DNA of 64,000 bases from Methyloligellaceae bacterium (GCA_965224165.1 CBDCYM010000011.1:1522877-1586876), one strand, 5' to 3'. Positions 3,341-38,604 are shown, numbered from the stretch's first letter. Made by a program: numbers and translations. Notes: generated by a model from the letters alone, not told the origin.

Positions 3341-3794
3341 CTTGAGGTCCTTTCTCCTGTTCCTTAATAAGACTGTGGTTCAAAGTCGTGAGCGCCAATT
3401 CTGCCGCTTTTAGTGTTTCAAGCGGCAGCTCTTCAGCCAGCCGTTCAAGCACTTTGATTTCTCGTTTACGAATTGCAGCAAATGTATTTTTGCCCTTTTG
3501 TGTCAGGGCATAGAGCGGCGATCTTTTATGAGCCGGGTTTTGCAGGCGCTTGACAAAACCGCAGCTAAACAACTCGTCCATGTTGACTTGGATATGCTGA
3601 CGCGAAACGCCTTTGGGCCGAGCGATGTCAGGAACAGTGTGAGGCCCATCTTCCGCCAAGAACTCCATCACAGCTCTCATTGAAGCGCTTACGCCGATAT
3701 CCCTATGCATTTCGTCAGCAATGTTCTTGAGCCGATTAAAGCTTGTGCGGATCCGTGCAATGACGGCATATAATTTTTGTGCTTTCGGCGACAT
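3333..3794 (-). CDS. MarR family transcriptional regulator
   Basis: 153 aa with a winged-helix region (…VSRQHIQVNMDELFSCGFVKR…) typical of MarR, and a palindromic operator-like sequence immediately upstream. Confidence 0.75.
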   Translation of the reverse strand: MSPKAQKLYAVIARIRTSFNRLKNIADEMHRDIGVSASMRAVMEFLAEDGPHTVPDIARPKGVSRQHIQVNMDELFSCGFVKRLQNPAHKRSPLYALTQKGKNTFAAIRKREIKVLERLAEELPLETLKAAELALTTLNHSLIKEQEKGPQDD

Positions 3795-19820: not shown

Positions 19821-19896
19821 TGGCGCCCCCAAGGGGACTCGAACCCCTGTTTCCGGCGTGAGAGGCCGGCGTCCTAGGCCACTAGACGATGGGGGC
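19821..19896 (-). tRNA. tRNA-Glu (anticodon CUC), 76 nt including an encoded CCA
   Basis: Reverse complement is GCCCCCATCGTCTAGTGGCCTAGGACGCCGGCCTCTCACGCCGGAAACAGGGGTTCGAGTCCCCTTGGGGGCGCCA. It has a 7-bp acceptor stem, anticodon stem CCGGC/GCCGG with loop CTCTCAC, and T-loop GGTTCGAGTCC. Confidence 0.88.
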
Positions 19897-29519: not shown

Positions 29520-30386
29520 ATGGGTATTTCAGCCTTTATGCATAGGGGGAGGGGCGCATTTTTGTGTGTCTCTCTGATTGTCATGCAAGCATCGTTAGCA
29601 TGGGGTGAGAAGACGCCTTCCCATCCCTGGCCGACAACATCAAAGACGTTTGTTTCTCTTGCGACGCATATAAAGCCTCCCAAGGGTTACCATCGCATCA
29701 AAGCTGAACCTGGAAGTTTTGCCCACTGGCTCCGCAGCTTGCCTTTGAAGCCATCAGGAAGTTTTGTCCGCCTCTATAACGGCAGTTTCAGATTTAATCA
29801 GCTCGCCCATTATGCGGTTATAGATATGGATGTCGGTAAACGCGATTTGCAGCAATGCGCCGATGCCGTCATGCGTCTCCGTGCCGAATATCTATATGCT
29901 CAAGGGCGACGGAATGAAATTGCCTTTAATTTCACAGGCGGGTCTCGCATTCCGTTTTCCCGTTGGAGCAAGGGGTGGCGGCCGCACGTCAAAGGTAAAC
30001 GCGTGAGTTGGTCACGGCGCGGCAAAAGAGGGGCCCATTACAAGAGTTTTCGGAAATATATGGACATTATTTTTGCGTATGCGGGAACATACTCGCTTGA
30101 ACGTGAGATGATCTCGGTCTCAGTTAAAGACATGGCCATTGGAGATGTTTTTATCCAGGGTGGTTTTCCAGGTCATGCCATCCTTGTTGCGGACATGGTG
30201 AAGAACCCAGAGACAGGCGAAAAACGCTTTCTTCTGATCCAAAGTTTCATGCCTGCGCAAGATATTCATGTTTTGCGTGATCCGAAAAATCCGCTTACGC
30301 CTTGGTATGGTCTTGATTTCAGCAAAACACTCATAACACCGGACTGGATCTTCCGGGCTAAAGATTTGCGGCGGTTTAAGAATTGA
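29520..30386 (+). CDS. hypothetical secreted protein, 288 aa (possibly DUF4846-like)
   Basis: N-terminal signal peptide (LCVSLIVMQASLAWG), basic, no catalytic motif recognised. It lies just downstream of two repeat elements. Confidence 0.5.
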   Translation: MGISAFMHRGRGAFLCVSLIVMQASLAWGEKTPSHPWPTTSKTFVSLATHIKPPKGYHRIKAEPGSFAHWLRSLPLKPSGSFVRLYNGSFRFNQLAHYAVIDMDVGKRDLQQCADAVMRLRAEYLYAQGRRNEIAFNFTGGSRIPFSRWSKGWRPHVKGKRVSWSRRGKRGAHYKSFRKYMDIIFAYAGTYSLEREMISVSVKDMAIGDVFIQGGFPGHAILVADMVKNPETGEKRFLLIQSFMPAQDIHVLRDPKNPLTPWYGLDFSKTLITPDWIFRAKDLRRFKN

Positions 30387-30403: not shown

Positions 30404-31279
30404 TCAGGACGCAAATAAATAGTCTCTATACTCAGCGAAATCGGATTTAGCCGAACCACACCAAAACAAACTTGGCCAATTCACTAAGTACAGACAATTT
30501 TCACTCATAAATGACTCAATTTCTGGCTCAATCTCATCAACATTAGCGTTTTCTGCTTCCCTCAAGTTGAGGGCAATAATATTGCCGGAAACGTCTACTT
30601 GCCCCCACAACAACCAACCTGATTGCGTCTCAAGCGCAAAACCGTTGACTATAGCTGCCGCAATATTATTGAAAGCCACGCCAGAGAAAGTCCTTTTAAT
30701 TGAAAAAAGATGTTTTATCCGGTCAAAATGGAGGAACTTATCACGAAGAGGCTCTTTTATTATTTTTCGCACATGTATTTGATTAAAACCAATACCTTCT
30801 CTGTGATTTTCATATATCGACTTAATCGCTTTCATTTCCTCGTCAATTGATGAGTTAAAACTGTTGGATATAAACTCAAATTGCCTCCAATCATCTTCTA
30901 AAACAATCAAGGCATCTTCCAATGATATTTTGGCCTCCTTAACTGCTGCGATGTCATCATTTATCGTAGGCAAACTGAACAAGACTGTATTCGGGTCAAT
31001 ATCAAGGATTTCAACCTTTACGAGGGATAATTTTAGATTTCCGGATTTTATGAATTCAGATTTCTTCGGCGGCGATGCATTCAGAACACGCCAATCCTGA
31101 TCCGCCAAATTTATTGTCGTTTGAATTTCGAAGGTATCTGGAAGATCATCTACGGCAATGTTTGATACGGCAAACGGTTGAGAATTATCCCCCTCAAAAA
31201 ATTCTACTTTTATTTCATTCGGATTATTTTTAGATTCAAACATGACAGCTCCAAAAGTCAGGCATTCATAATTAAACAA
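30404..31279 (-). CDS. hypothetical acidic protein, 291 aa, AT-rich (GC clearly below the surrounding genes)
   Basis: Long clean ORF convergent with 29520..30386. Asp/Glu/Asn-rich. No recognisable domain. Confidence 0.45.
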   Translation of the reverse strand: MFNYECLTFGAVMFESKNNPNEIKVEFFEGDNSQPFAVSNIAVDDLPDTFEIQTTINLADQDWRVLNASPPKKSEFIKSGNLKLSLVKVEILDIDPNTVLFSLPTINDDIAAVKEAKISLEDALIVLEDDWRQFEFISNSFNSSIDEEMKAIKSIYENHREGIGFNQIHVRKIIKEPLRDKFLHFDRIKHLFSIKRTFSGVAFNNIAAAIVNGFALETQSGWLLWGQVDVSGNIIALNLREAENANVDEIEPEIESFMSENCLYLVNWPSLFWCGSAKSDFAEYRDYLFAS

Positions 31280-31412: not shown

Positions 31413-32588
31413 CTAGCGATCTTCTTCACTTGAGGAAGCCTGATCATCTTCTTGCCTCGGTGCTTTTTCAAGGTGCAAGAGGTTATGGAGAAGACTGTCG
31501 AAACCTCGGGCTTCACCACCTGTGACCAGCTTGATCTTACCGACCTTTTCGGTCAGCTTCTCAAGCGCTTCAATTTCTTTCAGACGCAAGAGTAATGGAT
31601 TGTTTTCCATAAGCCGTGCTGTATTGAGCAGTGAGCGCGTGGCGGCTGTTTCTTCGCGGCGGCGGATCAGATTAGCTTGTGCCACCTTTTCCGCTTCTAC
31701 GACCTTGTTAATCAACTCACGCATCTCGCCGGGAAGGATAATGTCCTTCAAGCCAAGCTCGTTGACCGAGACACCTATGTCACCTAGATGCACGTCGACA
31801 TAGGTGCGAACTTGGTTGTCAACAGTCTCACGGTTATTCAGGATCTGATCGAGAGTGCGTGTCGATACGGCTTCCCGCACCGCAAACTGAGTAAGGCGAT
31901 AGATATATGTTGCATAATCAGATGTTTCCTGAACGGCCTTTTCAGGATGCGTCACCTGCGTAAAGGCTGTCAGTGTCACACGCAGTGAGACGCGGTCTTT
32001 GGTCAGGATTTCTTGCGCTGTAATTTCATGCGGGATCGGACGCAGATCTAGTGTCTCCACGCGCACTTGATGATGCACAGCCCAAAAAGCATGCCGGCCG
32101 GGGTCGAGCTCTTCCTTGAGTTCGCCATCGACAAAGAGGAGGCCGGCCTCATGCTGGTTAACCGTCACATCTTGAACAAGAGTCGTCGTGCTGGTCTGGA
32201 TCGCATTCAGATCTTCTTTTTCCACCTTGATGTCTTTTGACGTATCGATCATCTTGACCGTTACGGTGTTCAATGCTTTCCAAAAGACTCGCTTTTTCCA
32301 TGGGCCCATTAAATGAGTAGGCACACCGTCAAATGAGACAATGGCGACCTCGCCTTCACCTGTTTGAACGATTTCAAAATGTTCCTCGGCAATATCAGGA
32401 TGGTTCTTTTCAATAACGGTTGCTATCGCTTCGGGTACTTCGGCCTTCAGGACTGAATGGCGATCAATTTCAATTTTTTGCGAAAAATTAGCAAAACGAT
32501 AACGTCCCGGGCCAAGCACCCGGCTGAATTTTCCATTCTCAAACAAAAAGGCGCGTTCACCTTCGCGCACTGTAACGACGCGGTACAT
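31413..32588 (-). CDS. SPFH/band-7 (stomatin/flotillin-like) domain protein with an about 190-aa N-terminal region of unknown function
   Basis: C-terminal half shows SPFH-like features (…ILTKDRVSLRVTLTAFTQV…ILPGEMRELINKVVEAEKVAQANLIRRREE…) followed by a coiled coil. No TM helix is apparent. Confidence 0.65.
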   Translation of the reverse strand: MYRVVTVREGERAFLFENGKFSRVLGPGRYRFANFSQKIEIDRHSVLKAEVPEAIATVIEKNHPDIAEEHFEIVQTGEGEVAIVSFDGVPTHLMGPWKKRVFWKALNTVTVKMIDTSKDIKVEKEDLNAIQTSTTTLVQDVTVNQHEAGLLFVDGELKEELDPGRHAFWAVHHQVRVETLDLRPIPHEITAQEILTKDRVSLRVTLTAFTQVTHPEKAVQETSDYATYIYRLTQFAVREAVSTRTLDQILNNRETVDNQVRTYVDVHLGDIGVSVNELGLKDIILPGEMRELINKVVEAEKVAQANLIRRREETAATRSLLNTARLMENNPLLLRLKEIEALEKLTEKVGKIKLVTGGEARGFDSLLHNLLHLEKAPRQEDDQASSSEEDR

Positions 32589-32939
32589 CGGTCTATCCTA
32601 AAAACTTTTTATTTCGAGTTGAGCCATCTGGCTCACCTACCAATCACAATCAAAAGTCTTGGAGGACTGGATGGCTACCGATTTCGACGAAAACGGAAGC
32701 AATCCAACTGCATGATATGAAGCAATCCAACTGCATGATATTATGTGACAAAAGGTAGCGGCAGGTACGCGTGCTGTGTGGCGAAATAATGGCCTTAAGC
32801 AAAAAAACTGTTGTATGGATTGATAATATCTATTTTTCTTCATCTAATATCTGATCAAAATAACTCCCACCTGTTAAATGAGCCCAAGAACTTGGGCGGC
32901 AAGGATTTTATATTGATCCCTTGAGTTGAGGTTATTGCA

Positions 32940-33232
32940 CTTTCCTAAACAGGTCACCGGAGGCTTGACCTCGACACGTCATGTGCGGGCCCTTGCTTGA
33001 GGTGCTGCGAGCCCGCCCGCGCCACAAGCACCGCGAGACGAACGCACTCTGGGGCCCGAAGGCCCAGAGCCGCTCATCCGGCAGACCTGTGCGCCAGGCT
33101 TCGCGCAGCACCGGTATCCGCAAGGGCACAAAGCCCATGTCGTGCCTGCCACAATCCGGGTACTCATTTTGGCCGAAGCCGCCACGAGCACCTATCATGT
33201 GGCGTGAGCCCAAACCTCCGGCTCCCCAATAA
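32940..33232 (-). ncRNA. candidate structured ncRNA of about 290 nt. It is GC-rich with two C(UUCG)G tetraloop hairpins on the - strand. Its identity is unknown.
   Basis: GC is about 64% against a local 45-50%. No protein-like ORF is present; the six-frame ORFs here are Arg/Pro-rich and overlap on both strands. On the - strand there are hairpins gggcc-TTCG-ggccc and ggc-TTCG-gcc. The ends are complementary (gccggagg … cctccggt). Confidence 0.35.
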
Positions 33233-33279
33233 GTATTTGAGCCAGATTATCAGTCTGGTCCAGGTTATGAGCCTGGTCG

Positions 33280-33351
33280 ATCAGATAGAAGGAATCGAAC
33301 CTTCGTCCCATTGGGGGAAACCCAATTGCTCTACCTCTGAGCTATATCCGA
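33280..33351 (-). tRNA. tRNA-like cloverleaf, 72 nt, with an aberrant anticodon arm (6-bp stem with a 5-nt loop, or loop GUUUCCC reading UUC). Possibly a tRNA pseudogene or tRNA-derived element.
   Basis: Reverse complement is TCGGATATAGCTCAGAGGTAGAGCAATTGGGTTTCCCCCAATGGGACGAAGGTTCGATTCCTTCTATCTGAT. D-arm and T-arm are canonical (TAGCTCAGAGGTAGAGC; GAAGGTTCGATTCCTTC). The acceptor stem has a G3·U70 wobble and no CCA is encoded. The anticodon loop is not a canonical 7-nt loop with a purine at position 37. Confidence 0.4.
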
Positions 33352-33605
33352 GTGGCGGATCGGCACTGGAACACGGCATCCGCAGCGCGGCCCGCGCCGG
33401 AGAGGTCTCAGCGAGCCCCAACCAAAGTGCGACAATCCACCAACAGGTCTAGCTGATAAAGTAGCAAAAGCAAAGCCGCCTCTTGCACAAAAGTCCGTAC
33501 CATGCGACCAAAATAGAGGTTTAGGAGAGAGATTCGCGGATGCAGCGCAGTTGGTACCTTCTACGAAAGTCGTCATTGCGACCGAGCATTTTAGATGTGC
33601 TATCG

Positions 33606-33664
33606 GCTAACGCCTACTTGAGCACTTGATATTTTGTGCTAACGGCCAGCGCCTACTTGAGCAC
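33606..33664. repeat. Direct repeat of gctaacg…cgcctacttgagcac (perfect 15-mer at 33611-33625 and 33650-33664) in the parE upstream region
   Basis: Read directly from the sequence, about 150 bp upstream of the parE start. Confidence 0.5.
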
Positions 33665-33806
33665 AAGTGAGCGTGGCAATCCAGATGTGAGGCAAATCAA
33701 GCCTAAAACAGGATTGCGTCGTCGGCTAAAGCCTCCTCGCAATGACGGGGAATCTATTTCGTGGAGAAATCCGGTTAGGAGTAACGCTGTCTAAGATGAT
33801 GAGACG

Positions 33807-35840
33807 ATGGGAAAAGTAGGCGATCTTTTCGCAAGATTAGAAGAAAAAATGGAACAAGCTCCGATCAGCCGCCGCGGGTCGAAAAAAGGCCGGGAGGGTG
33901 AAGCAAAATATACGGCTGCCGATATTGAGGTGCTCGAAGGGCTGGAACCCGTGCGCCGCCGTCCTGGCATGTATATTGGTGGCACGGATGAAAAGGCGCT
34001 GCATCATCTCTTTGCCGAAGTTATCGATAATTCCATGGATGAAGCCGTTGCCGGGCATGCGAGTTGGATTGAGGTTGCGTTGGACAAAGACGGCTGGTTG
34101 ACGGTAACGGACAATGGCCGGGGTATTCCTGTTGACCCTCATCCAAAATATAAAAAGAAATCCGCTCTTGAAGTCATTATGACCACGCTGCATGCAGGCG
34201 GAAAATTCAACTCTAAGGTTTATGACACATCAGGCGGTTTGCATGGCGTTGGCGTTTCGGTGGTCAATGCCCTTTCCGAAAAGCTTGAGGTTGAGGTTGC
34301 GCGCGATAAGCAGCTTTACCGGCAAATCTACAGTCGTGGCAAACCGCAAGGAGCGCTTAAAAAGCTAGGATCTATAAAGAATCGCCGTGGTACCAAAATC
34401 CGCTTCAAACCGGATGAGAAAATCTTCGGCAAAAAAGCGGCTTTTAAGCCTTCGCGATTATTCCGCATGGCGCGATCCAAAGCCTATCTCTTCGGCGGTG
34501 TGGAAATTCGTTGGTCCTGTGCGCCAAGCCTCATTGACGCGAAAGATGAGACACCGCCGCAAGCGGTTTTTCATTTTCCGGGAGGTCTAAAGGACTTCTT
34601 GGCGTCGCGCATTGAAGGGCGGACATATGTTGCCCGCGATGCTTTCTTTGGCAAACACAACCAGGATGGCGGTCATGGTTCCGTGGAATGGGCCATCGCT
34701 TGGATTGGCGATGCGGACGGCTTTTTAAACTCTTATTGTAACACTGTGCCGACGGCTGACGGCGGCACGCATGAAGCCGGATTGCGCGCTGCTCTCACCA
34801 AAGGGTTGAGGGCCTATGGTGAGCTAACGGGCAATAAAAAGGCGGCGCAGATAACGGCTGATGACGTTTTGTCTTCCGCTGCGGCTATGCTCTCAGTTTT
34901 CATTCGGGAACCAGAGTTTCAAGGCCAAACAAAGGATAAACTCGCCACGCAGGAGGCGGCTCGTATTGTCGAGAGCACGCTGCGCGATGCATTTGATCAT
35001 TGGCTGACGGCGAGCCCTCAGCAAGCGAACAAACTCTTGGAATGGGTTATTGACCGCTCAGAAGAACGCCTGCGCCGCCGTCGCGAAAAAGAAGTAAACC
35101 GTAAAACCGCGGCCCGCAAACTGCGTCTGCCTGGGAAACTTGCTGATTGTTCAAAGTCGGCAAAGGATGGAACGGAAATTTTTATCGTTGAGGGGGACTC
35201 AGCTGGTGGTTCAGCCAAACAGGCGCGCAATCGTGCGACCCAAGCCGTCTTGCCTCTGCGTGGCAAAATTCTAAACGTTGCCAATGCCAGCTCCGCCAAG
35301 CTTGCGCAAAACCAGCTTTTGTCGGACCTCATTCAGGCTTTGGGCTGTGGAATGGGAACAAGTTACCGGGATGATGATTTGCGCTACGAGAAGGTTATCA
35401 TCATGACCGACGCCGATGTGGACGGTGCCCATATTGCGTCTCTACTCATCACCTTTTTTTACCGGCAAATGCCGGAACTCATCGAAAATGGCCATCTTTA
35501 TCTAGCCGTGCCGCCGCTTTATAAAATTACGCAAGGCGCTAAATCGGTCTATGCCCGTGATGATGCGCACAAAGATAGTTTGCTTGAGAGCGATTTTACA
35601 GGGCGCGGTAAGATCGAAATTTCCCGCTTTAAAGGCCTTGGTGAAATGATGCCGGCCCAGCTTAAAGAAACCACCATGAATCCGGAGACGCGCATTCTGC
35701 TTCGTGTTGAAGTGGATGAAGATGATCGCACCCAAACCTCAAAAGCAGTTGATCAACTTATGGGAAATAAGCCGGAAGCGCGCTTTAAGTTTATCCAGGA
35801 CAATGCTGAATATGTCAGTGGTGAGGAGCTGGATATTTAA
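33807..35840 (+). CDS. parE: DNA topoisomerase IV subunit B
   Basis: GHKL ATPase, TOPRIM and GyrB C-terminal motifs. The 677-aa length is the ParE size (short against GyrB, about 800 aa). Confidence 0.88.
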   Translation: MGKVGDLFARLEEKMEQAPISRRGSKKGREGEAKYTAADIEVLEGLEPVRRRPGMYIGGTDEKALHHLFAEVIDNSMDEAVAGHASWIEVALDKDGWLTVTDNGRGIPVDPHPKYKKKSALEVIMTTLHAGGKFNSKVYDTSGGLHGVGVSVVNALSEKLEVEVARDKQLYRQIYSRGKPQGALKKLGSIKNRRGTKIRFKPDEKIFGKKAAFKPSRLFRMARSKAYLFGGVEIRWSCAPSLIDAKDETPPQAVFHFPGGLKDFLASRIEGRTYVARDAFFGKHNQDGGHGSVEWAIAWIGDADGFLNSYCNTVPTADGGTHEAGLRAALTKGLRAYGELTGNKKAAQITADDVLSSAAAMLSVFIREPEFQGQTKDKLATQEAARIVESTLRDAFDHWLTASPQQANKLLEWVIDRSEERLRRRREKEVNRKTAARKLRLPGKLADCSKSAKDGTEIFIVEGDSAGGSAKQARNRATQAVLPLRGKILNVANASSAKLAQNQLLSDLIQALGCGMGTSYRDDDLRYEKVIIMTDADVDGAHIASLLITFFYRQMPELIENGHLYLAVPPLYKITQGAKSVYARDDAHKDSLLESDFTGRGKIEISRFKGLGEMMPAQLKETTMNPETRILLRVEVDEDDRTQTSKAVDQLMGNKPEARFKFIQDNAEYVSGEELDI

Positions 35841-36209
35841 CTACTGGCTCTCCGGCCCTCTATAGACGCATCCCTCCTGACAAGAATCGCGCGACACTGC
35901 AATTTCAGCTAAGCCAGGGAATTCACCTTCAAGCCTCTTCCATAGCCACTTGGTAATGTGCTCCAAAGTCGGGAGTTCAAGCCCTGGAATATCGTTTAGG
36001 TAGCGATGGTCAAGCTCTGCACGAGCCTTGTTCAACGCTTTGGTCATCTCATCGAAATGCACAATAACACCGGTTTCAGGGTCCGGTTCACCATCAATGG
36101 TAACGCGCACGCGGAATGAGTGCCCATGCATCCGGGCATTGGGATGGCCTTCCGCGGCGGTTGGCAGCAAATGGGCCGCCTCAATATGAAATTCCTTATA
36201 GATACGCAT
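35841..36209 (-). CDS. queD: 6-carboxy-5,6,7,8-tetrahydropterin synthase
   Basis: Begins MRIYKEFHIEAAHLLP… with the Zn-binding His/Glu pattern of QueD. Start taken at the internal Met of ORF 35841..36269. Confidence 0.85.
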   Translation of the reverse strand: MRIYKEFHIEAAHLLPTAAEGHPNARMHGHSFRVRVTIDGEPDPETGVIVHFDEMTKALNKARAELDHRYLNDIPGLELPTLEHITKWLWKRLEGEFPGLAEIAVSRDSCQEGCVYRGPESQ

Positions 36210-36372
36210 GGAATGCTCTTTATGCGATTTTTGCGTCCGCGTCACCCTGGCAAATTTACGCAATGACATTTATAAGACGGCAATAATCTTAGCTTATGAG
36301 CTAATGTTATAGGGTCTTGCGGACTAAGTCCTATTTGCCCGTTTCACAATTGGACGTTATTGCTGTCTGGCA

Positions 36373-37026
36373 TTACGCAATGCCGATGAGCTTATGGGTC
36401 TGCAGGCTTAAACGCCATTGGGGATGCGCAAGGCAATAGCGGATTGCAACACGGGTATTCTCTTCTTTTAAGGCGTTATCCATCGGCTGCAAAAAGAAAT
36501 GATCAAAGCTCAACGCGCTCACTTCTTCGGGGCTTATACCATCTTGAGGGTAAACAAGCTTAAGTTCATTGCCGGATGTTTGAACAAGGTCTGCTCCTGC
36601 TTTCGGGCTCACGCAAATCCAATCAATGTCACGGGGAACAGGCAATGTCCCGTTTGTCTCAATGGCAATCTCGAATCCGACGTCATGAAGGGCGGTAATC
36701 AGCTTTTCGTCAATCTGTAACATTGGCTCACCGCCAGTGAGGACGACAAAGGGCGTACCCGGCCGATCATCCCATATGTTTTTACATGCCAAAGCTAAAT
36801 CTTGGGCCGCCTTAAATTGACCACCACCCGGTCCGTCCGTGCCAACAAAATCCGTATCACAAAACGAGCAGACGGCACCTTCACGGTCTTCCTCCCGGCC
36901 TGACCAAAGATTGCATCCCGCGAAGCGACAGAATACTGCCGACCGGCCTGTATTGGCCCCTTCACCTTGCAAGGTATGATAGATTTCTTTGACTGAGTAC
37001 ATATTCTGAAACTGCAACAACCTCAC
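36373..37026 (-). CDS. queE: 7-carboxy-7-deazaguanine synthase (radical SAM); the true start may be the Met at 37002
   Basis: …LQGEGANTGRSAVFCRFAGCNLWSG… with the QueE-type Cys cluster, about 210 aa, immediately upstream of queD on the same strand. Confidence 0.8.
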   Translation of the reverse strand: MRLLQFQNMYSVKEIYHTLQGEGANTGRSAVFCRFAGCNLWSGREEDREGAVCSFCDTDFVGTDGPGGGQFKAAQDLALACKNIWDDRPGTPFVVLTGGEPMLQIDEKLITALHDVGFEIAIETNGTLPVPRDIDWICVSPKAGADLVQTSGNELKLVYPQDGISPEEVSALSFDHFFLQPMDNALKEENTRVAIRYCLAHPQWRLSLQTHKLIGIA

Positions 37027-37128
37027 CTAATAGGTAAAGGTTAAATTCTTGCCAGCCAAATTTTTTCGCCTATTGCAGCGCAGGTTGTTATTGCCGTTTG
37101 ATAAAGCACGTTATTTGACTGGCACAGT

Positions 37129-37443
37129 CTAAGTCGAAACCTCATGTAAAGGTGTCAACGACTTCTGATCGATTTTACGCTGAGCATGCCACAGATCGTG
37201 AGCGTTTTGCATTTTAAGCCAACTCTCGGGCGAGCGCCCAAAAACAATGCTCATGCGAACAGCCATTTCAGGCGTGACCGCTTGTTCTTCATTGAGCAGA
37301 TCATAGAGGGTTTGCCGCGAAACACCTAAAGCCCGCGCGATCGCTGCTTTGGACACATCAAGCGCAGGCAAAATAATTTCATGCAAAATCTTACCAGGAT
37401 GTGCTGGGCATCGATTTGGGCTTCTGAGTAATTTTTTTGTCAT
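37129..37443 (-). CDS. higA: HigA-type antitoxin (XRE-family HTH)
   Basis: HTH sequence AAIARALGVSRQTLYDLLNEEQAVTPEMAVRMS. Start chosen at the Met preceded by GGAGGTGGTG. It lies directly downstream of higB. Confidence 0.8.
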   Translation of the reverse strand: MTKKLLRSPNRCPAHPGKILHEIILPALDVSKAAIARALGVSRQTLYDLLNEEQAVTPEMAVRMSIVFGRSPESWLKMQNAHDLWHAQRKIDQKSLTPLHEVST

Positions 37444-37465
37444 GGCACCACCTCCAACACAATAC

Positions 37466-37744
37466 TTAGTGGTAGTCTTCAAGGTCGATAGCAATTGCAT
37501 CTCCATCTTCCCAGGCAAAGGTTACCCTCCAGTTACCCTGCACGTCCACAGCATAACGACCTTTCATATTACCTTTAAGGGGATGAAAATTCAGGCCAGG
37601 AACATTCATGTCTTCCGGCACGATACTTGTGTCCAACAAATCAAGGATCATTGCGATTTTATCGACCCATTCAGGGGAGAGTTTGCTGGCATCGTCTTTC
37701 TCCCAAAAACGGCGGAGACGCCGACTCTGAAACGAAACAATCAT
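37466..37744 (-). CDS. higB: HigB-type toxin (RelE/ParE superfamily mRNA interferase, 'plasmid maintenance system killer')
   Basis: 92 aa. The N-terminal RRLRRFWEK… and C-terminal …GRYAVDVQGNWRVTFAWEDGDAIAIDLEDYH are typical of HigB. It is the upstream partner of the HTH antitoxin. Confidence 0.8.
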   Translation of the reverse strand: MIVSFQSRRLRRFWEKDDASKLSPEWVDKIAMILDLLDTSIVPEDMNVPGLNFHPLKGNMKGRYAVDVQGNWRVTFAWEDGDAIAIDLEDYH

Positions 37745-37884
37745 TGTTATATTGCCCCCGCAATTCTGTTTGTGACATCGTCATCCCCATATTTCCCCAC
37801 CGTATTTCTATTTGTAAGGAGAGTCTTTACACATGTCAAGTGATGGCTGACATTGTTGTTGCTTTGAATTAGGAATAGAACCAA

Positions 37885-38604
37885 TTAGGCTCTGCTTGCC
37901 TTCGCCCCCTGCTCCCACCAAGCCTGAAACCCCTTCGCACGTAACTCGCAAGCCGGACATGTTGCACACCCATAGCCCCATACGTGGCGTTCCGTACGTA
38001 CACCATTATAGCAACTGTGGGTGTGTTCAACGATGAGATCAATGAGATCTTGCCCACCAAGTTCTTCAGTCAAAGCCCAAGTTGCCGCTTTATTGTGCCA
38101 CATCAGGGGCGTTTCGATGTGGAATTCTGTATCCGTTCCTAGATTGATGGCTTTCGCGAGAGTTAGCAAAGTATCGTTTCGGCAATCAGGATAGCCGGAA
38201 TAATCTGTTTCACACATACCGCCCACTAGGGTTTTGATATCCCGTCGGTAACCTAGCGCTGCGGCATAGGTAAAAAACAAAAGGTTTCGCGCAGGAACAA
38301 ATGTGTTGGGCAGGCCTGCTTGGCTCATCTCGATTTCAACATTCCGGGTGAGGGCGGTATCTGAAATCTGCCCTAACGCGGTCAGGTTTAATAGGTGATC
38401 CCGACCAAGCTTCGCAGTCCAGTTCGGAAATTGCTTTTTTAGGGCAGTTAAAATCACGTTGCGGCACTCAAGCTCAATCTTATGGCGTTGGCCATAATCG
38501 AAGCCGATAGTTTCAACGGCCTTATAACGGTTTAAAGCCCAAGCAAGGCATATTGTTGAATCTTGGCCCCCAGAAAAGAGAACAAGTGCCTTATCGCCTA
38601 TCAT
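37885..38604 (-). CDS. queC: 7-cyano-7-deazaguanine synthase
   Basis: PP-loop motif [14 protein letters not shown] and C-terminal Zn-binding cysteines (CATCPAC). Confidence 0.9.

What the first reader, a model, noticed from the sequence alone, without database searches (positions are those of the whole stretch)
33280..33351. tRNA-like cloverleaf with canonical D and T arms, a G3·U70 pair, and a non-canonical anticodon arm
The - strand sequence TCGGATATAGCTCAGAGGTAGAGCAATTGGGTTTCCCCCAATGGGACGAAGGTTCGATTCCTTCTATCTGAT folds into acceptor, D (GCTC/GAGC), anticodon and T (GAAGG-TTCGATT-CCTTC) arms. The anticodon region can only form a 6-bp stem with a 5-nt loop, or a 7-nt loop GUUUCCC with pyrimidines at 32 and 37, which is not a functional decoding loop. 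The acceptor stem carries the G3·U70 wobble, the alanine and tmRNA identity element. No CCA is encoded. It could be a decaying duplicate tRNA, a tRNA-derived regulatory or processing element flanking the GC-rich RNA next to it, or the remnant target of an integrative element. The surrounding region, with repeats, AT-rich genes and orphan RNA-like sequence, looks accessory.
Basis: seen in the sequence. Interest (0 to 1): 0.55.

Follow-up and report, generated by a model that had tools for sequence, protein, structure and literature searches.

The report
Non-decoding tRNA mimic beside SPFH gene
The odd "tRNA" is real but does not look like a decoding tRNA or a decaying one: it appears to be a tRNA-shaped domain of a larger structured RNA that travels with a stomatin-like (SPFH/Band-7) gene, a pairing predicted in 2016 ("b7a-tRNA") in bacterial RNA-repair loci and, as of a 2018 paper, not yet tested experimentally.

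Summary
The cloverleaf at 33280-33351 (-) is real: ARAGORN calls tRNA-Glu(UUC) and Rfam tRNA scores 58.5 bits. It is not an isolated relic. Relatives of the SPFH/Band-7 gene 691 nt downstream carry a same-strand tRNA-like unit upstream in all 4 metagenome loci with enough upstream DNA, 4 Burkholderia and 1 Photobacterium. In the last two groups the order is rtcR, tRNA-like unit(s), slipin, rtcB, nucleotidyltransferase. [quoted passage not shown] Across 11 units the cloverleaf covaries (14 of 21 pairs), but the anticodon arm varies freely, no CCA is encoded, and G3.U70 is unique to the window. In the window and four relatives the unit lies inside a ~485-nt RNA whose 5' and 3' domains covary (7 of 32 and 25 of 81 pairs). 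The 3' domain folds 50 kcal/mol better on the tRNA's strand. No rtc genes were found in the 64 kb. Verdict: a new member of a known but untested class. The larger RNA and the rtc-free context may be new; I could not read the 2016 paper.

The parts
33280..33351 (-). tRNA-like cloverleaf (b7a-tRNA-type unit). It has a 7-bp acceptor stem with G3.U70, canonical D and T arms, a non-decoding anticodon arm (loop GUUUCCC, or a 6-bp stem with a 5-nt loop), U73 and no CCA.
   Evidence: ARAGORN; Rfam tRNA 58.5 bits; MFE cloverleaf; covarying cloverleaf across 11 units.
33352..33435 (-). 5' domain of the RNA: a three-helix GC-rich element with the conserved blocks GGGGCUC..GAGACC and CCGUGUUCCA. It ends directly at the 5' end of the tRNA-like unit.
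   Evidence: Alignments A1 and A3 with L088-L091. 32 pairs, 94% of cells paired, 7 pairs compensatory against 3.1 in shuffles, slide controls <=3, and three G.U pairs invariant in all 5 sequences.
33242..33276 (-). Two anticodon-arm-like hairpins: CCAGG-CUCAUAA-CCUGG (33260-33276) and CCAGA-CUGAUAA-UCUGG (33242-33258). I interpret them as the remnant of a second, tandem tRNA-like unit.
   Evidence: The 15-mer CAGACTGATAATCTG (33243-33257) is identical to the anticodon arm of the full tRNA-like unit in L089 and is unique in the window, with 0 expected by chance. Tandem units occur in Photobacterium, and degenerate first units occur in L091 and L096. The homology assignment is an inference.
32951..33226 (-). 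3' domain of the RNA: a ~275-nt extended, branched GC-rich hairpin with the conserved blocks GGCUUUGUGCC and GGAUACCGG.
   Evidence: -173 kcal/mol, z=-8.1 on the minus strand against -123 kcal/mol, z=-3.3 on the plus strand. 15 G.U pairs against 4. 81 consensus pairs, 25 compensatory against 9.5+-2.4 in shuffles (0 of 500 reach 25), slide controls <=9.
33446..33473 (-). Possible sigma-70-type promoter of the RNA (TTGCTT, 16 nt, TAGACC). It is aligned with the TCGACA-N17-TATAGG / TAGAGG element upstream of the RNA in L088-L091.
   Evidence: Read from the sequence and alignment A1. The promoter scan did not flag it. This is an inference of low confidence.
31413..32588 (-). SPFH/Band-7 ('slipin') gene, 391 aa, with no predicted membrane anchor. 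It is the conserved partner gene on the same strand, 691 nt downstream of the tRNA-like unit.
   Evidence: Pfam Band_7 7.4e-34. Full-length homologs at 35-51% identity, each with upstream tRNA-like units. Maximum KD(19) of 0.82. The closest solved structures are stomatins deposited as 16-chain assemblies.

Best explanation
[quoted passage not shown] In this genome it is one domain of a ~485-nt structured RNA (about 32951-33435, minus strand). That RNA consists of a 5' three-helix domain, the tRNA-like unit, the remnant of a second tRNA-like unit, and a long 3' rod. It is encoded just upstream of, and co-inherited with, a soluble stomatin-like SPFH/Band-7 gene.

Shown here:
- The tRNA shape is conserved by covariation while the anticodon arm is free to vary.
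- The flanking domains are conserved RNA structure on the same strand.
- The RNA and the SPFH gene move together between genomic contexts.
- In Beta- and Gammaproteobacteria the same pairing sits in RtcR-controlled rtcB / nucleotidyltransferase RNA-repair operons.

Inferred:
- The RNA is the cognate partner of the oligomeric SPFH protein, as Y RNA (YrlA) is for Ro/Rsr. The RNP would act in the response to RNA, especially tRNA, damage.
- The L-shaped tRNA-like domain would be what tRNA-recognising enzymes see: RNase P, CCA-adding enzyme, modification enzymes, RtcB-type ligases, or anticodon nucleases that it could decoy.
- With its 7-bp acceptor stem the unit may be excised by RNase P and 3' processing and receive CCA post-transcriptionally, as was shown for M. 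smegmatis YrlA (PMC4201824).
- It is not used in translation.
For: 1. It is a real, intact cloverleaf.
2. The association is conserved. All 4 SPFH-relative metagenome loci with enough upstream DNA carry a same-strand tRNA-like unit 410-430 nt upstream. So do 4 of 4 Burkholderia and Photobacterium, the latter with two tandem units.
3. tblastn shows the order rtcR, tRNA-like, slipin, rtcB, NTase in Burkholderia and Photobacterium. RtcR next to slipin is annotated in Citrobacter.
4. [quoted passage not shown] P. aeruginosa PaFlo8 is an SPFH protein embedded in the rtc locus (PMC13086221).
5. Across 11 units 97.8% of cells are paired and 14 of 21 pairs are compensatory. The D arm and T loop are invariant. 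The anticodon arms range from 7-nt loops with UGU, GAU, GGU, GCU or CAU to GAAA tetraloops and an AAA triloop. None encodes CCA.
6. The flanking domains covary and favour the tRNA's strand.
7. Only the RNA and the SPFH gene are shared between contexts: DUF4846...parE in the window, gap-pgk-peroxiredoxin...TamB/ThiE in the relatives.
8. The SPFH protein has no TM-grade segment, and its nearest solved relatives are stomatin assemblies.
Against: - No RtcB, RtcA, RtcR or partner nucleotidyltransferase was found in the 64-kb window or in the flanks of L088-L093. The link to RNA repair is therefore by homology of the SPFH gene only.
- A leave-one-out covariance model scores the window's unit at 54.9 bits, and an ordinary tRNA-Pro at 50.8. 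Body sequence does not separate it from real tRNAs, so membership rests on context and the shared flanks.
- The covariation rests on only 5 sequences, 3 of which are close to each other.
- Which unit of the relatives the window's cloverleaf corresponds to is ambiguous.
- I have no expression, processing or binding data.
- I could not read the primary 2016 paper, so its definition is taken second-hand.
Confidence: 0.75

Rival explanations
1. The structured RNA, including the tRNA-like unit, is a cis-acting 5' leader of the SPFH mRNA. It would act as a processing or stability signal, or as a sensor of tRNA-related stress, and not as a trans-acting RNA partner of the protein.
For: It lies on the same strand as the SPFH gene and upstream of it in every case. 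In Burkholderia I read a TGGCAC-N5-CGCT sigma-54-like motif upstream of the tRNA-like units in the sequence, which would place them in the operon's leader. The window has no strong terminator between the RNA and the gene.
Against: In L088-L091 the RNA ends in a hairpin followed by a U-rich tract, and a separate promoter-like element precedes the SPFH gene (read; inference). The spacer to the gene varies widely, about 360 nt beyond the 3' domain in the window against about 150 nt in the relatives. The analogous YrlA is a stable, protein-bound RNA although it is encoded inside an operon (PMC4201824). The two readings are not exclusive.
Confidence: 0.15
2. It is a decaying tRNA pseudogene, or the leftover tRNA target (attB) of a lost integrative element, with no present function.
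For: The region is an insertion relative to a close relative. It contains a low-GC (0.38) foreign gene whose homologs sit in accessory regions elsewhere. The anticodon loop is non-functional, and no exact counterpart of this loop was found in metagenome or viral collections.
Against: All 21 stem pairs and the U8-A14, G15-C48, G18G19 and T-loop nucleotides are intact. No integrase or coding remnant was found and no repeat of either half. Homologous units with conserved, covarying flanks accompany orthologous SPFH genes in three proteobacterial classes.
Confidence: 0.06
3. It is a functional tRNA: either the tRNA-Glu(UUC) that ARAGORN calls, or an alanine-accepting tRNA (through G3.U70) that reads GAA/GAG and deliberately mistranslates.
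For: ARAGORN assigns Glu-UUC. The tRNA score is high. G3.U70 is the main AlaRS identity element (established knowledge). [quoted passage not shown]
Against: G32 and C37 violate the pyrimidine-32 / purine-37 rule, and G32-C38 closes the loop to 5 nt. From my own knowledge, the body lacks the bacterial tRNA-Glu identity features; compare the canonical tRNA-Glu. No CCA is encoded, whereas the genome's canonical tRNA encodes it. G3.U70 and the 'anticodon' are not conserved in the family, which includes tetraloop arms.
Confidence: 0.04

Closest known systems
b7a-tRNA (band 7-associated tRNA), predicted by Burroughs & Aravind, Nucleic Acids Res 2016 44:8525, as summarised in Wang et al. 2018 (bioRxiv 10.1101/312249)
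   Same: It is a predicted ncRNA that closely resembles a real tRNA and is encoded next to a Band-7/SPFH gene. The window's SPFH protein is a full-length homolog (35-38% identity) of the slipins that sit with tRNA-like units in rtcR, slipin, rtcB, NTase operons.
   Different: No RtcB, RtcA, RtcR or nucleotidyltransferase was found within 64 kb. The unit is embedded in a ~485-nt RNA with covarying 5' and 3' domains and a probable promoter of its own. The anticodon arm has the unusual GUUUCCC loop, and the acceptor stem has G3.U70. I could not check whether the original paper covered such stand-alone versions or the flanking domains, because the paper is not held.
YrlA, the Y-RNA-like tRNA mimic bound by Rsr/Ro60 in rsr-yrlBA-rtcBA operons (Rfam RF02553; PMC4201824)
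   Same: It is a tRNA-shaped domain (D arm, T arm, acceptor-like stem, tertiary contacts) inside a larger ncRNA, encoded beside a ring- or cage-forming protein in RNA-repair loci, with a non-decoding 'anticodon' region. M. smegmatis YrlA is cleaved by RNase P and receives CCA.
   Different: RF02553 does not match the window at E<=1 and gives only a 17-bit sub-threshold match in L088. The partner here is SPFH, not Ro/TROVE. The tRNA-like unit here is a complete, free-standing cloverleaf and not a domain closed by the Ro-binding stem.
Canonical bacterial tRNA (Rfam RF00005)
   Same: It matches the full-length cloverleaf at 58.5 bits, with all tertiary-interaction nucleotides present. Annotation pipelines will call it a tRNA.
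   Different: The anticodon loop is non-decoding, CCA is not encoded while the genome's canonical tRNA encodes it, the apparent anticodon is not conserved among homologs, and it is embedded in a larger conserved RNA.
tmRNA tRNA-like domain
   Same: It shares the G3.U70 pair and a T arm, and it is a tRNA mimic within a larger RNA.
   Different: ARAGORN finds no tmRNA, permuted or standard, in the window. There is no tag reading frame. A full D arm and anticodon arm are present. G3.U70 is not conserved in the family.

Membership tests
b7a-tRNA (Band-7-associated tRNA-like ncRNA) | [quoted passage not shown] | tested here: met
   Rfam tRNA 58.5 bits over the full model; ARAGORN call; MFE cloverleaf.
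b7a-tRNA (Band-7-associated tRNA-like ncRNA) | Encoded adjacent to a Band-7/SPFH-domain protein gene of the subfamily found in RNA-repair loci | tested here: met
   The SPFH gene 31413-32588 lies on the same strand 691 nt downstream (Pfam Band_7). It is a full-length homolog of the slipins in the rtcR/rtcB operons of Burkholderia, Photobacterium and Citrobacter.
b7a-tRNA (Band-7-associated tRNA-like ncRNA) | Locus also encodes the RtcB RNA ligase (with RtcR and a nucleotidyltransferase) | tested here: not met
   tblastn with E. coli RtcA/RtcB/RtcR and the Citrobacter and E. coli NTases finds nothing in the 64-kb window or in L088-L093, but finds them in L096-L101. These genes could lie elsewhere in the 4.2-Mb genome, which cannot be tested here.
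b7a-tRNA (Band-7-associated tRNA-like ncRNA) | Sequence and structure homology to other Band-7-associated tRNA-like units, beyond generic tRNA similarity | tested here: inconclusive
   The leave-one-out model R2 gives 54.9 bits for the window's unit, 50.8 for a canonical tRNA-Pro and 29.6 for tRNA-Leu. Homology is supported instead by the shared, covarying 5' and 3' flanks with L088-L091.
YrlA / bacterial Y RNA | Match to the Rfam RF02553 covariance model | tested here: not met
   No match at E<=1 in window 32500-34200. L088 gives 17 bits against a gathering score of 69.
YrlA / bacterial Y RNA | Encoded next to an rsr (Ro60/TROVE) gene | tested here: not met
   The Pfam domains of ten flanking gene products between 25.8 and 40.5 kb include no TROVE domain. 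The rest of the window was not scanned.
Decoding tRNA-Glu(UUC) | A 7-nt anticodon loop with pyrimidine 32, U33 and purine 37 | tested here: not met
   The loop is G32-U33-U34-U35-C36-C37-C38, and the MFE fold pairs G32 with C38.
Decoding tRNA-Glu(UUC) | Anticodon conserved among orthologs | tested here: not met
   Homologous units carry UGU, GAU, GGU, GCU, CAU, or tetra- and triloops.
Decoding tRNA-Glu(UUC) | Aminoacylation and use on the ribosome | not testable with these tools
   This needs charging assays or tRNA-seq.
tmRNA | A tRNA-like domain plus a tag-encoding reading frame, detectable by ARAGORN | tested here: not met
   ARAGORN reports no tmRNA in the window. Rfam gives only the tRNA match.

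The most novel reading that the evidence does not exclude
The ~485-nt RNA (5' three-helix domain, tandem tRNA-like units, ~275-nt 3' rod) may be a previously undescribed large structured ncRNA. It would form a cytoplasmic RNP with a soluble, cage- or ring-forming stomatin-like protein, a bacterial counterpart of Ro/Y-RNA or vault/vault-RNA particles. In this alphaproteobacterial lineage the particle would work independently of RtcB. The freely changing 'anticodon' (UGU, GAU and GGU among near-identical relatives) could be a bait that evolves against anticodon nucleases.
Probability: 0.3. Interest if true: 0.7.

Novelty: new member of a known kind. Interest (0 to 1): 0.5.

Why it matters
**Annotation.** tRNA finders label these units as ordinary tRNAs with spurious anticodons: Glu here, and Thr, Ile, Ser, Met or Phe in the homologs. 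That inflates tRNA gene sets and can suggest false codon-reading capacity or false integration sites.

**Biology.** The Band-7-associated tRNA-like RNA was a computational prediction that had not been validated experimentally as of the 2018 paper I could read. This locus and its relatives give a compact two-component version, RNA plus a soluble SPFH protein, without the rtc genes. It also shows that the tRNA mimic belongs to a much larger RNA whose structure is supported by covariation. That makes a concrete question testable: do bacterial SPFH/stomatin-type assemblies have a dedicated RNA cofactor, as Ro has Y RNA?

Tried and rejected
- **Island boundary.** I searched the window for a second copy of the tRNA's 3' or 5' half with up to 3 mismatches and found none.
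- **Coding remnants.** Six-frame translations of the GC-rich flanks against Pfam at E<=1 gave nothing, so this is not a decayed integrase or other gene.
- **The same odd loop elsewhere.** The patterns TAGAGCA-N5-GTTTCCC-N12-14-GGTTCRA (metagenome contigs) and GCTCAGAGGTAGAGCA-N5-GTTTCCC (viral contigs) gave no hits.
- **A parent tRNA in viruses.** Patterns for the acceptor/T half and for the 5' half gave no hits.
- **blastn of the region** against phage and plasmid collections gave nothing relevant.
- **parE-based synteny.** None of 84 relatives has a tRNA upstream of parE, and none shows DNA similarity. This showed the element is not tied to parE.
- **Exact-protein look-ups** for the window's ParE, QueD, SPFH protein and P0001 all failed.
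- **The 291-aa ORF as a partner gene.** Its homologs lie in unrelated accessory contexts without SPFH or tRNA, and it is not the rtc-associated nucleotidyltransferase.
- **Known large RNAs.** The Rfam E-value searches would have reported any known family (GOLLD, ROOL, 6S, tmRNA, RNase P and others); only the tRNA model matched.
- **Defence-system models.** PADLOC gave no match for the SPFH protein or the 291-aa protein.
- **The primary paper.** Burroughs & Aravind 2016 could not be retrieved by DOI or PMC id.

Full report
**1.

ARAGORN reports two tRNAs in the window. One is at 33279-33351 on the minus strand, labelled tRNA-Glu(ttc). Rfam's tRNA model matches 33280-33351 over its full length at 58.5 bits (E=4.5e-10 for the window). 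The window's other tRNA, a canonical tRNA-Glu(CUC) at 19821-19896, scores 63.4 bits.

The sequence and its minimum-free-energy fold show these features:
- Acceptor stem UCGGAUA/UAUCUGA, 7 bp, with G3.U70.
- D arm GCUC-AGAGGUA-GAGC.
- T arm GAAGG-UUCGAUU-CCUUC.
- Intact U8, A14, G15/C48 and G18G19.
- Anticodon stem AUUGG/CCAAU enclosing G32-U-U-U-C-C37-C38.

G32 and C37 break the pyrimidine-32 / purine-37 rule, and RNAfold pairs G32 with C38, giving a 6-bp stem and a 5-nt loop. After U73 come CGACC, so no CCA is encoded. The canonical tRNA-Glu(CUC) in the same window does encode CCA.

**2. Context**

The window comes from an alphaproteobacterial chromosome of about 48% GC.
- The 677-aa gene at 33807-35840 (+) is parE. 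It passes TIGR01055 above its cutoff.
- Its best relatives are Hyphomicrobiales-type genomes and MAGs at 78-83% identity.
- An identical protein is on record on a 4.23-Mb contig.

Gene order around the finding:

| Coordinates | Strand | Feature |
|---|---|---|
| 29520-30386 | + | DUF4846 |
| 30404-31279 | - | 291-aa gene with no Pfam match |
| 31413-32588 | - | SPFH/Band-7 gene |
| 32589-33806 | | 1.2 kb of non-coding DNA containing the tRNA-like unit |
| 33807-35840 | + | parE |
| 35841-38604 | - | queD, queE, a short unannotated ORF, queC |

In a relative with 81% identical ParE, DUF4846 is followed after 316 nt by parE (L082). About 3.4 kb is therefore extra in the window. None of 84 parE loci from relatives has a tRNA upstream or any DNA similarity to the non-coding stretch.

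**3. The flanks are structured RNA on the tRNA's strand**

The blocks on either side of the cloverleaf are 0.65-0.69 GC, against 0.478 for the window and 0.496 for the SPFH gene.
- The 291 nt downstream of the tRNA-like unit fold to -173 kcal/mol (z=-8.1) on the minus strand.
- On the plus strand the same stretch folds to only -123 kcal/mol (z=-3.3).
- The minus-strand fold uses 15 G.U pairs, the plus-strand fold 4.
- Six-frame translations have no Pfam match at E<=1.
- Rfam finds nothing but the tRNA at E<=1.

**4. The key result: the element travels with the SPFH gene**

A scan of metagenome contigs for close relatives of the SPFH protein returned six loci at 37-68% identity. All four with enough upstream DNA carry an ARAGORN/Rfam tRNA on the same strand, 410-430 nt upstream of the SPFH start. 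ARAGORN labels them Thr(tgt), Ile(gat), Thr(ggt) and Ser(gct).

A tblastn search of plasmid and chromid records found full-length homologs at about 35% identity, annotated "slipin family protein". Their contexts are as follows:

| Organism | Order of genes | tRNA-like unit upstream of slipin |
|---|---|---|
| Burkholderia (4 species) | rtcR (divergent), tRNA-like, slipin, rtcB, nucleotidyltransferase | One unit with an aberrant loop, preceded by a degenerate unit |
| Photobacterium | rtcR (divergent), tRNA-like x2, slipin, rtcB | Two tandem units |
| Citrobacter | rtcR, slipin, nucleotidyltransferase | T-arm-like remnant only |
| E. coli (L094) | slipin, nucleotidyltransferase; no rtcR hit in the locus | T-arm-like remnant only |
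| Subdoligranulum | slipin, rtcB-like, nucleotidyltransferase | T-arm-like remnant only |

**5. What the literature says**

Wang et al. [quoted passage not shown] They add that its existence "has not been validated experimentally".

- A 2026 survey notes that P. aeruginosa PaFlo8, an SPFH protein, is embedded in the rtc locus (PMC13086221).
- The analogous YrlA RNAs are tRNA mimics. They carry tRNA modifications, and in M. smegmatis YrlA is cleaved by RNase P and receives CCA (PMC4201824).
- A decoy role against an anticodon nuclease has been suggested for YrlA (PMC7790460).
- In Anabaena a slipin-family gene and an unlinked rtcB are co-derepressed in a trcR mutant, and the repressor is relieved under translational stress (PMC10272220). 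I did not check which slipin subfamily that gene belongs to, so this is tangential.
- I could not retrieve the primary 2016 paper. From memory, its abstract names SPFH/Band-7 modules and "a novel tRNA-like molecule" as cognate scaffold and RNA. That is my own recollection and not a tool result.

**6. Anatomy of the family**

I aligned eleven units: the window's, four from metagenome loci, four from Burkholderia and two from Photobacterium (A4).
- With the cloverleaf imposed, 97.8% of cells are paired, against 80.3% in shuffles.
- 14 of 21 pairs show compensatory changes, against 6.5 in shuffles and at most 7 in slide controls.
- The D arm (AGCUCA..GG.(A/G)GAGCA) and the T loop (GGUUCGA.UCC) are invariant.
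- The anticodon stem covaries at all five pairs.
- The loop varies freely: CU-NNU-AA with UGU, GAU or GGU; UUGCUAA (GCU) in L091; a CAU loop; GAAA tetraloops; an AAA triloop; and the window's GUUUCCC.
- No unit is followed by CCA.
- Acceptor stems are AU-rich or otherwise odd.
- The 3-70 pair is U-A in nine units and G.U only in the window.

The tRNA shape is therefore under selection, and decoding is not.

A leave-one-out model scores the window's unit at 54.9 bits, but a genuine tRNA-Pro scores 50.8. Body sequence does not discriminate, so I rest membership on context and on the flanks.

**7. A larger RNA**

The window and L088-L091 share sequence blocks on both sides of the tRNA-like unit (A1).

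| Domain | Window coordinates | Consensus pairs | Cells paired | Compensatory pairs | Shuffle expectation | Slide controls |
|---|---|---|---|---|---|---|
| 5' (three helices) | 33352-33435 | 32 | 94.4% | 7 | 3.1 +/- 1.3 (1 of 500 reach 7) | <=3 |
| 3' (branched rod) | 32951-33226 | 81 | 89.4% | 25 | 9.5 +/- 2.4 (0 of 500 reach 25) | <=9 |

The 5' domain also has three G.U pairs that are invariant in all five sequences. The 3' domain results are. Only five sequences are available and three are close relatives, so this is good but not definitive support.

The Burkholderia leaders likewise fold into a small hairpin followed by a long extended hairpin of about 200 nt between the tRNA-like unit and the slipin start. 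Those four sequences are too similar to each other to show much covariation.

In the relatives the order is: 5' domain, an acceptor-less tRNA-like core, a full tRNA-like unit, 3' domain. The covariance model finds that core in L091 at 3461-3512 (E=0.017), and a weaker full-length first-unit match in Burkholderia L096 (E=0.59), both.

In the window the order is: 5' domain, the full cloverleaf, two anticodon-arm-like hairpins, 3' domain. One of those hairpins (33243-33257) is identical over 15 nt to the anticodon arm of L089's full unit and is unique in the window.

The simplest reading is an ancestral tandem pair of tRNA-like units, as still seen in Photobacterium, with a different unit reduced in each lineage. 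MAFFT places the window's cloverleaf at the position of the first unit. This assignment is an inference.

**8. The module is mobile as a pair**

In the relatives the RNA and SPFH gene sit between gap-pgk-peroxiredoxin and TamB or ThiE. In the window they sit between DUF4846 and parE. Only the RNA and the SPFH gene are shared.

The neighbouring 291-aa gene has a GC content of 0.38. It belongs to an uncharacterised ~273-aa family found mainly in Gammaproteobacteria, where it lies in unrelated accessory contexts. It is not the rtc-associated nucleotidyltransferase.

No RtcA, RtcB, RtcR or NTase homolog was found in the window or in L088-L093.

**9. The protein partner**

The 391-aa SPFH protein has no TM-grade hydrophobic stretch; its maximum Kyte-Doolittle 19-residue mean is 0.82. 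It starts with an extra copy of the SPFH N-terminal strand motif, as read from the translation. Its closest solved relatives are stomatins deposited as 16-chain assemblies. A soluble oligomeric SPFH ring or cage is a plausible RNA-binding scaffold, but that is inference.

**10. Mechanism proposed**

Shown:
- A conserved, non-decoding tRNA-shaped domain.
- Conserved flanking RNA structure on the same strand.
- Co-inheritance with a soluble SPFH gene.
- Membership of that gene's family in RtcR/RtcB RNA-repair operons elsewhere.

Inferred:
- The RNA is transcribed from its own promoter. A TTGCTT-16-TAGACC element at 33446-33473 aligns with TCGACA-17-TATAGG in the relatives.
- The RNA folds into three modules and associates with the SPFH oligomer.
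- The tRNA-like domain provides the surface recognised by tRNA-handling enzymes, or by tRNA-targeting nucleases as a decoy or competitive inhibitor.
- Its 7-bp acceptor stem makes excision by RNase P and post-transcriptional CCA addition plausible.
- G3.U70 could allow adventitious alanylation, but it is not conserved.

I put about 0.75 on the identity (a b7a-tRNA-type mimic within an SPFH-associated RNA). I put considerably less, about 0.4, on the specific scaffold/decoy mechanism.

**11. Verdict**

The finding is real and is not a pseudogene or an att-site relic. It belongs to a class already predicted in 2016, so the cloverleaf itself is a new member of a known kind. Two aspects may be new: the rtc-free, two-component context, and the ~485-nt covarying RNA around the unit. 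The limits are the small number of sequences and my inability to read the primary paper.

Noticed in passing
L088 2901-2915, L089 1826-1840, L090 3529-3543: Three tRNA-like units with otherwise near-identical bodies differ at the 'anticodon' triplet (UGU, GAU, GGU) while keeping U33, U36 and A37. This could reflect relaxed or diversifying selection on the loop, for example as bait for anticodon nucleases. With three sequences this is only suggestive.
   Followed up: partly
window 33596-33664 (also 33700-33750): Two 30-nt direct repeats (TGTGCTATCGGCTAACGCCTACTTGAGCAC, 90% identical, 39 nt apart), each able to form a GTGCT...AGCAC hairpin, lie between the RNA and parE together with further palindromic elements. 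A 31-nt stretch 84% similar to this repeat lies upstream of parE in relative L083. They may be REP-like or regulatory elements.
   Followed up: no
window 32696-32741: A perfect 23-bp tandem duplication (GAAGCAATCCAACTGCATGATAT x2) lies in the AT-rich spacer between the 3' RNA domain and the SPFH start codon. It could be a regulator binding site.
   Followed up: no
window 30404-31279 (-): This 291-aa gene (0.38 GC against 0.48 for the window) has no Pfam, NCBIfam or PADLOC match. It belongs to a ~273-aa uncharacterised family scattered in Thiodiazotropha, Pseudoteredinibacter, Serratia, Budvicia and Chania, in accessory contexts beside Fic and a transposase fragment.
   Followed up: partly
L094 4813-4827, L095 4814-4828, L101 3672-3690: The slipin + nucleotidyltransferase operons of E. 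coli and Citrobacter (rtcR-linked in Citrobacter) and the Subdoligranulum slipin locus have no full tRNA-like unit. They keep only a T-arm-like hairpin in the leader upstream of slipin. These may be reduced or diverged versions of the RNA.
   Followed up: partly
window 31413-32588 (-), residues 1-30 and 143-170: The SPFH protein carries two copies of the motif that normally begins an SPFH domain (VREGERAFLFENGKF..GPGRYRF and VNQHEAGLLFVDGEL..DPGRHAFW) and has no hydrophobic anchor. This suggests a partly duplicated, soluble SPFH architecture shared by the whole slipin subfamily, whose members align over their full length.
   Followed up: partly
window 35841-38604 (-): The queD, queE and queC genes (queuosine precursor synthesis, a tRNA modification pathway) lie just beyond parE. 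Relatives L083 and L084 have a DEAD-box helicase there instead, so the proximity to the tRNA mimic is probably coincidental.
   Followed up: no
window 33279-33351; L088-L091; L096-L100: Annotation hazard: ARAGORN and Rfam label these Band-7-associated mimics as ordinary tRNAs (Glu, Thr, Ile, Ser, Met, Phe or '???'), so automated annotation will report spurious tRNA genes and anticodons.
   Followed up: yes
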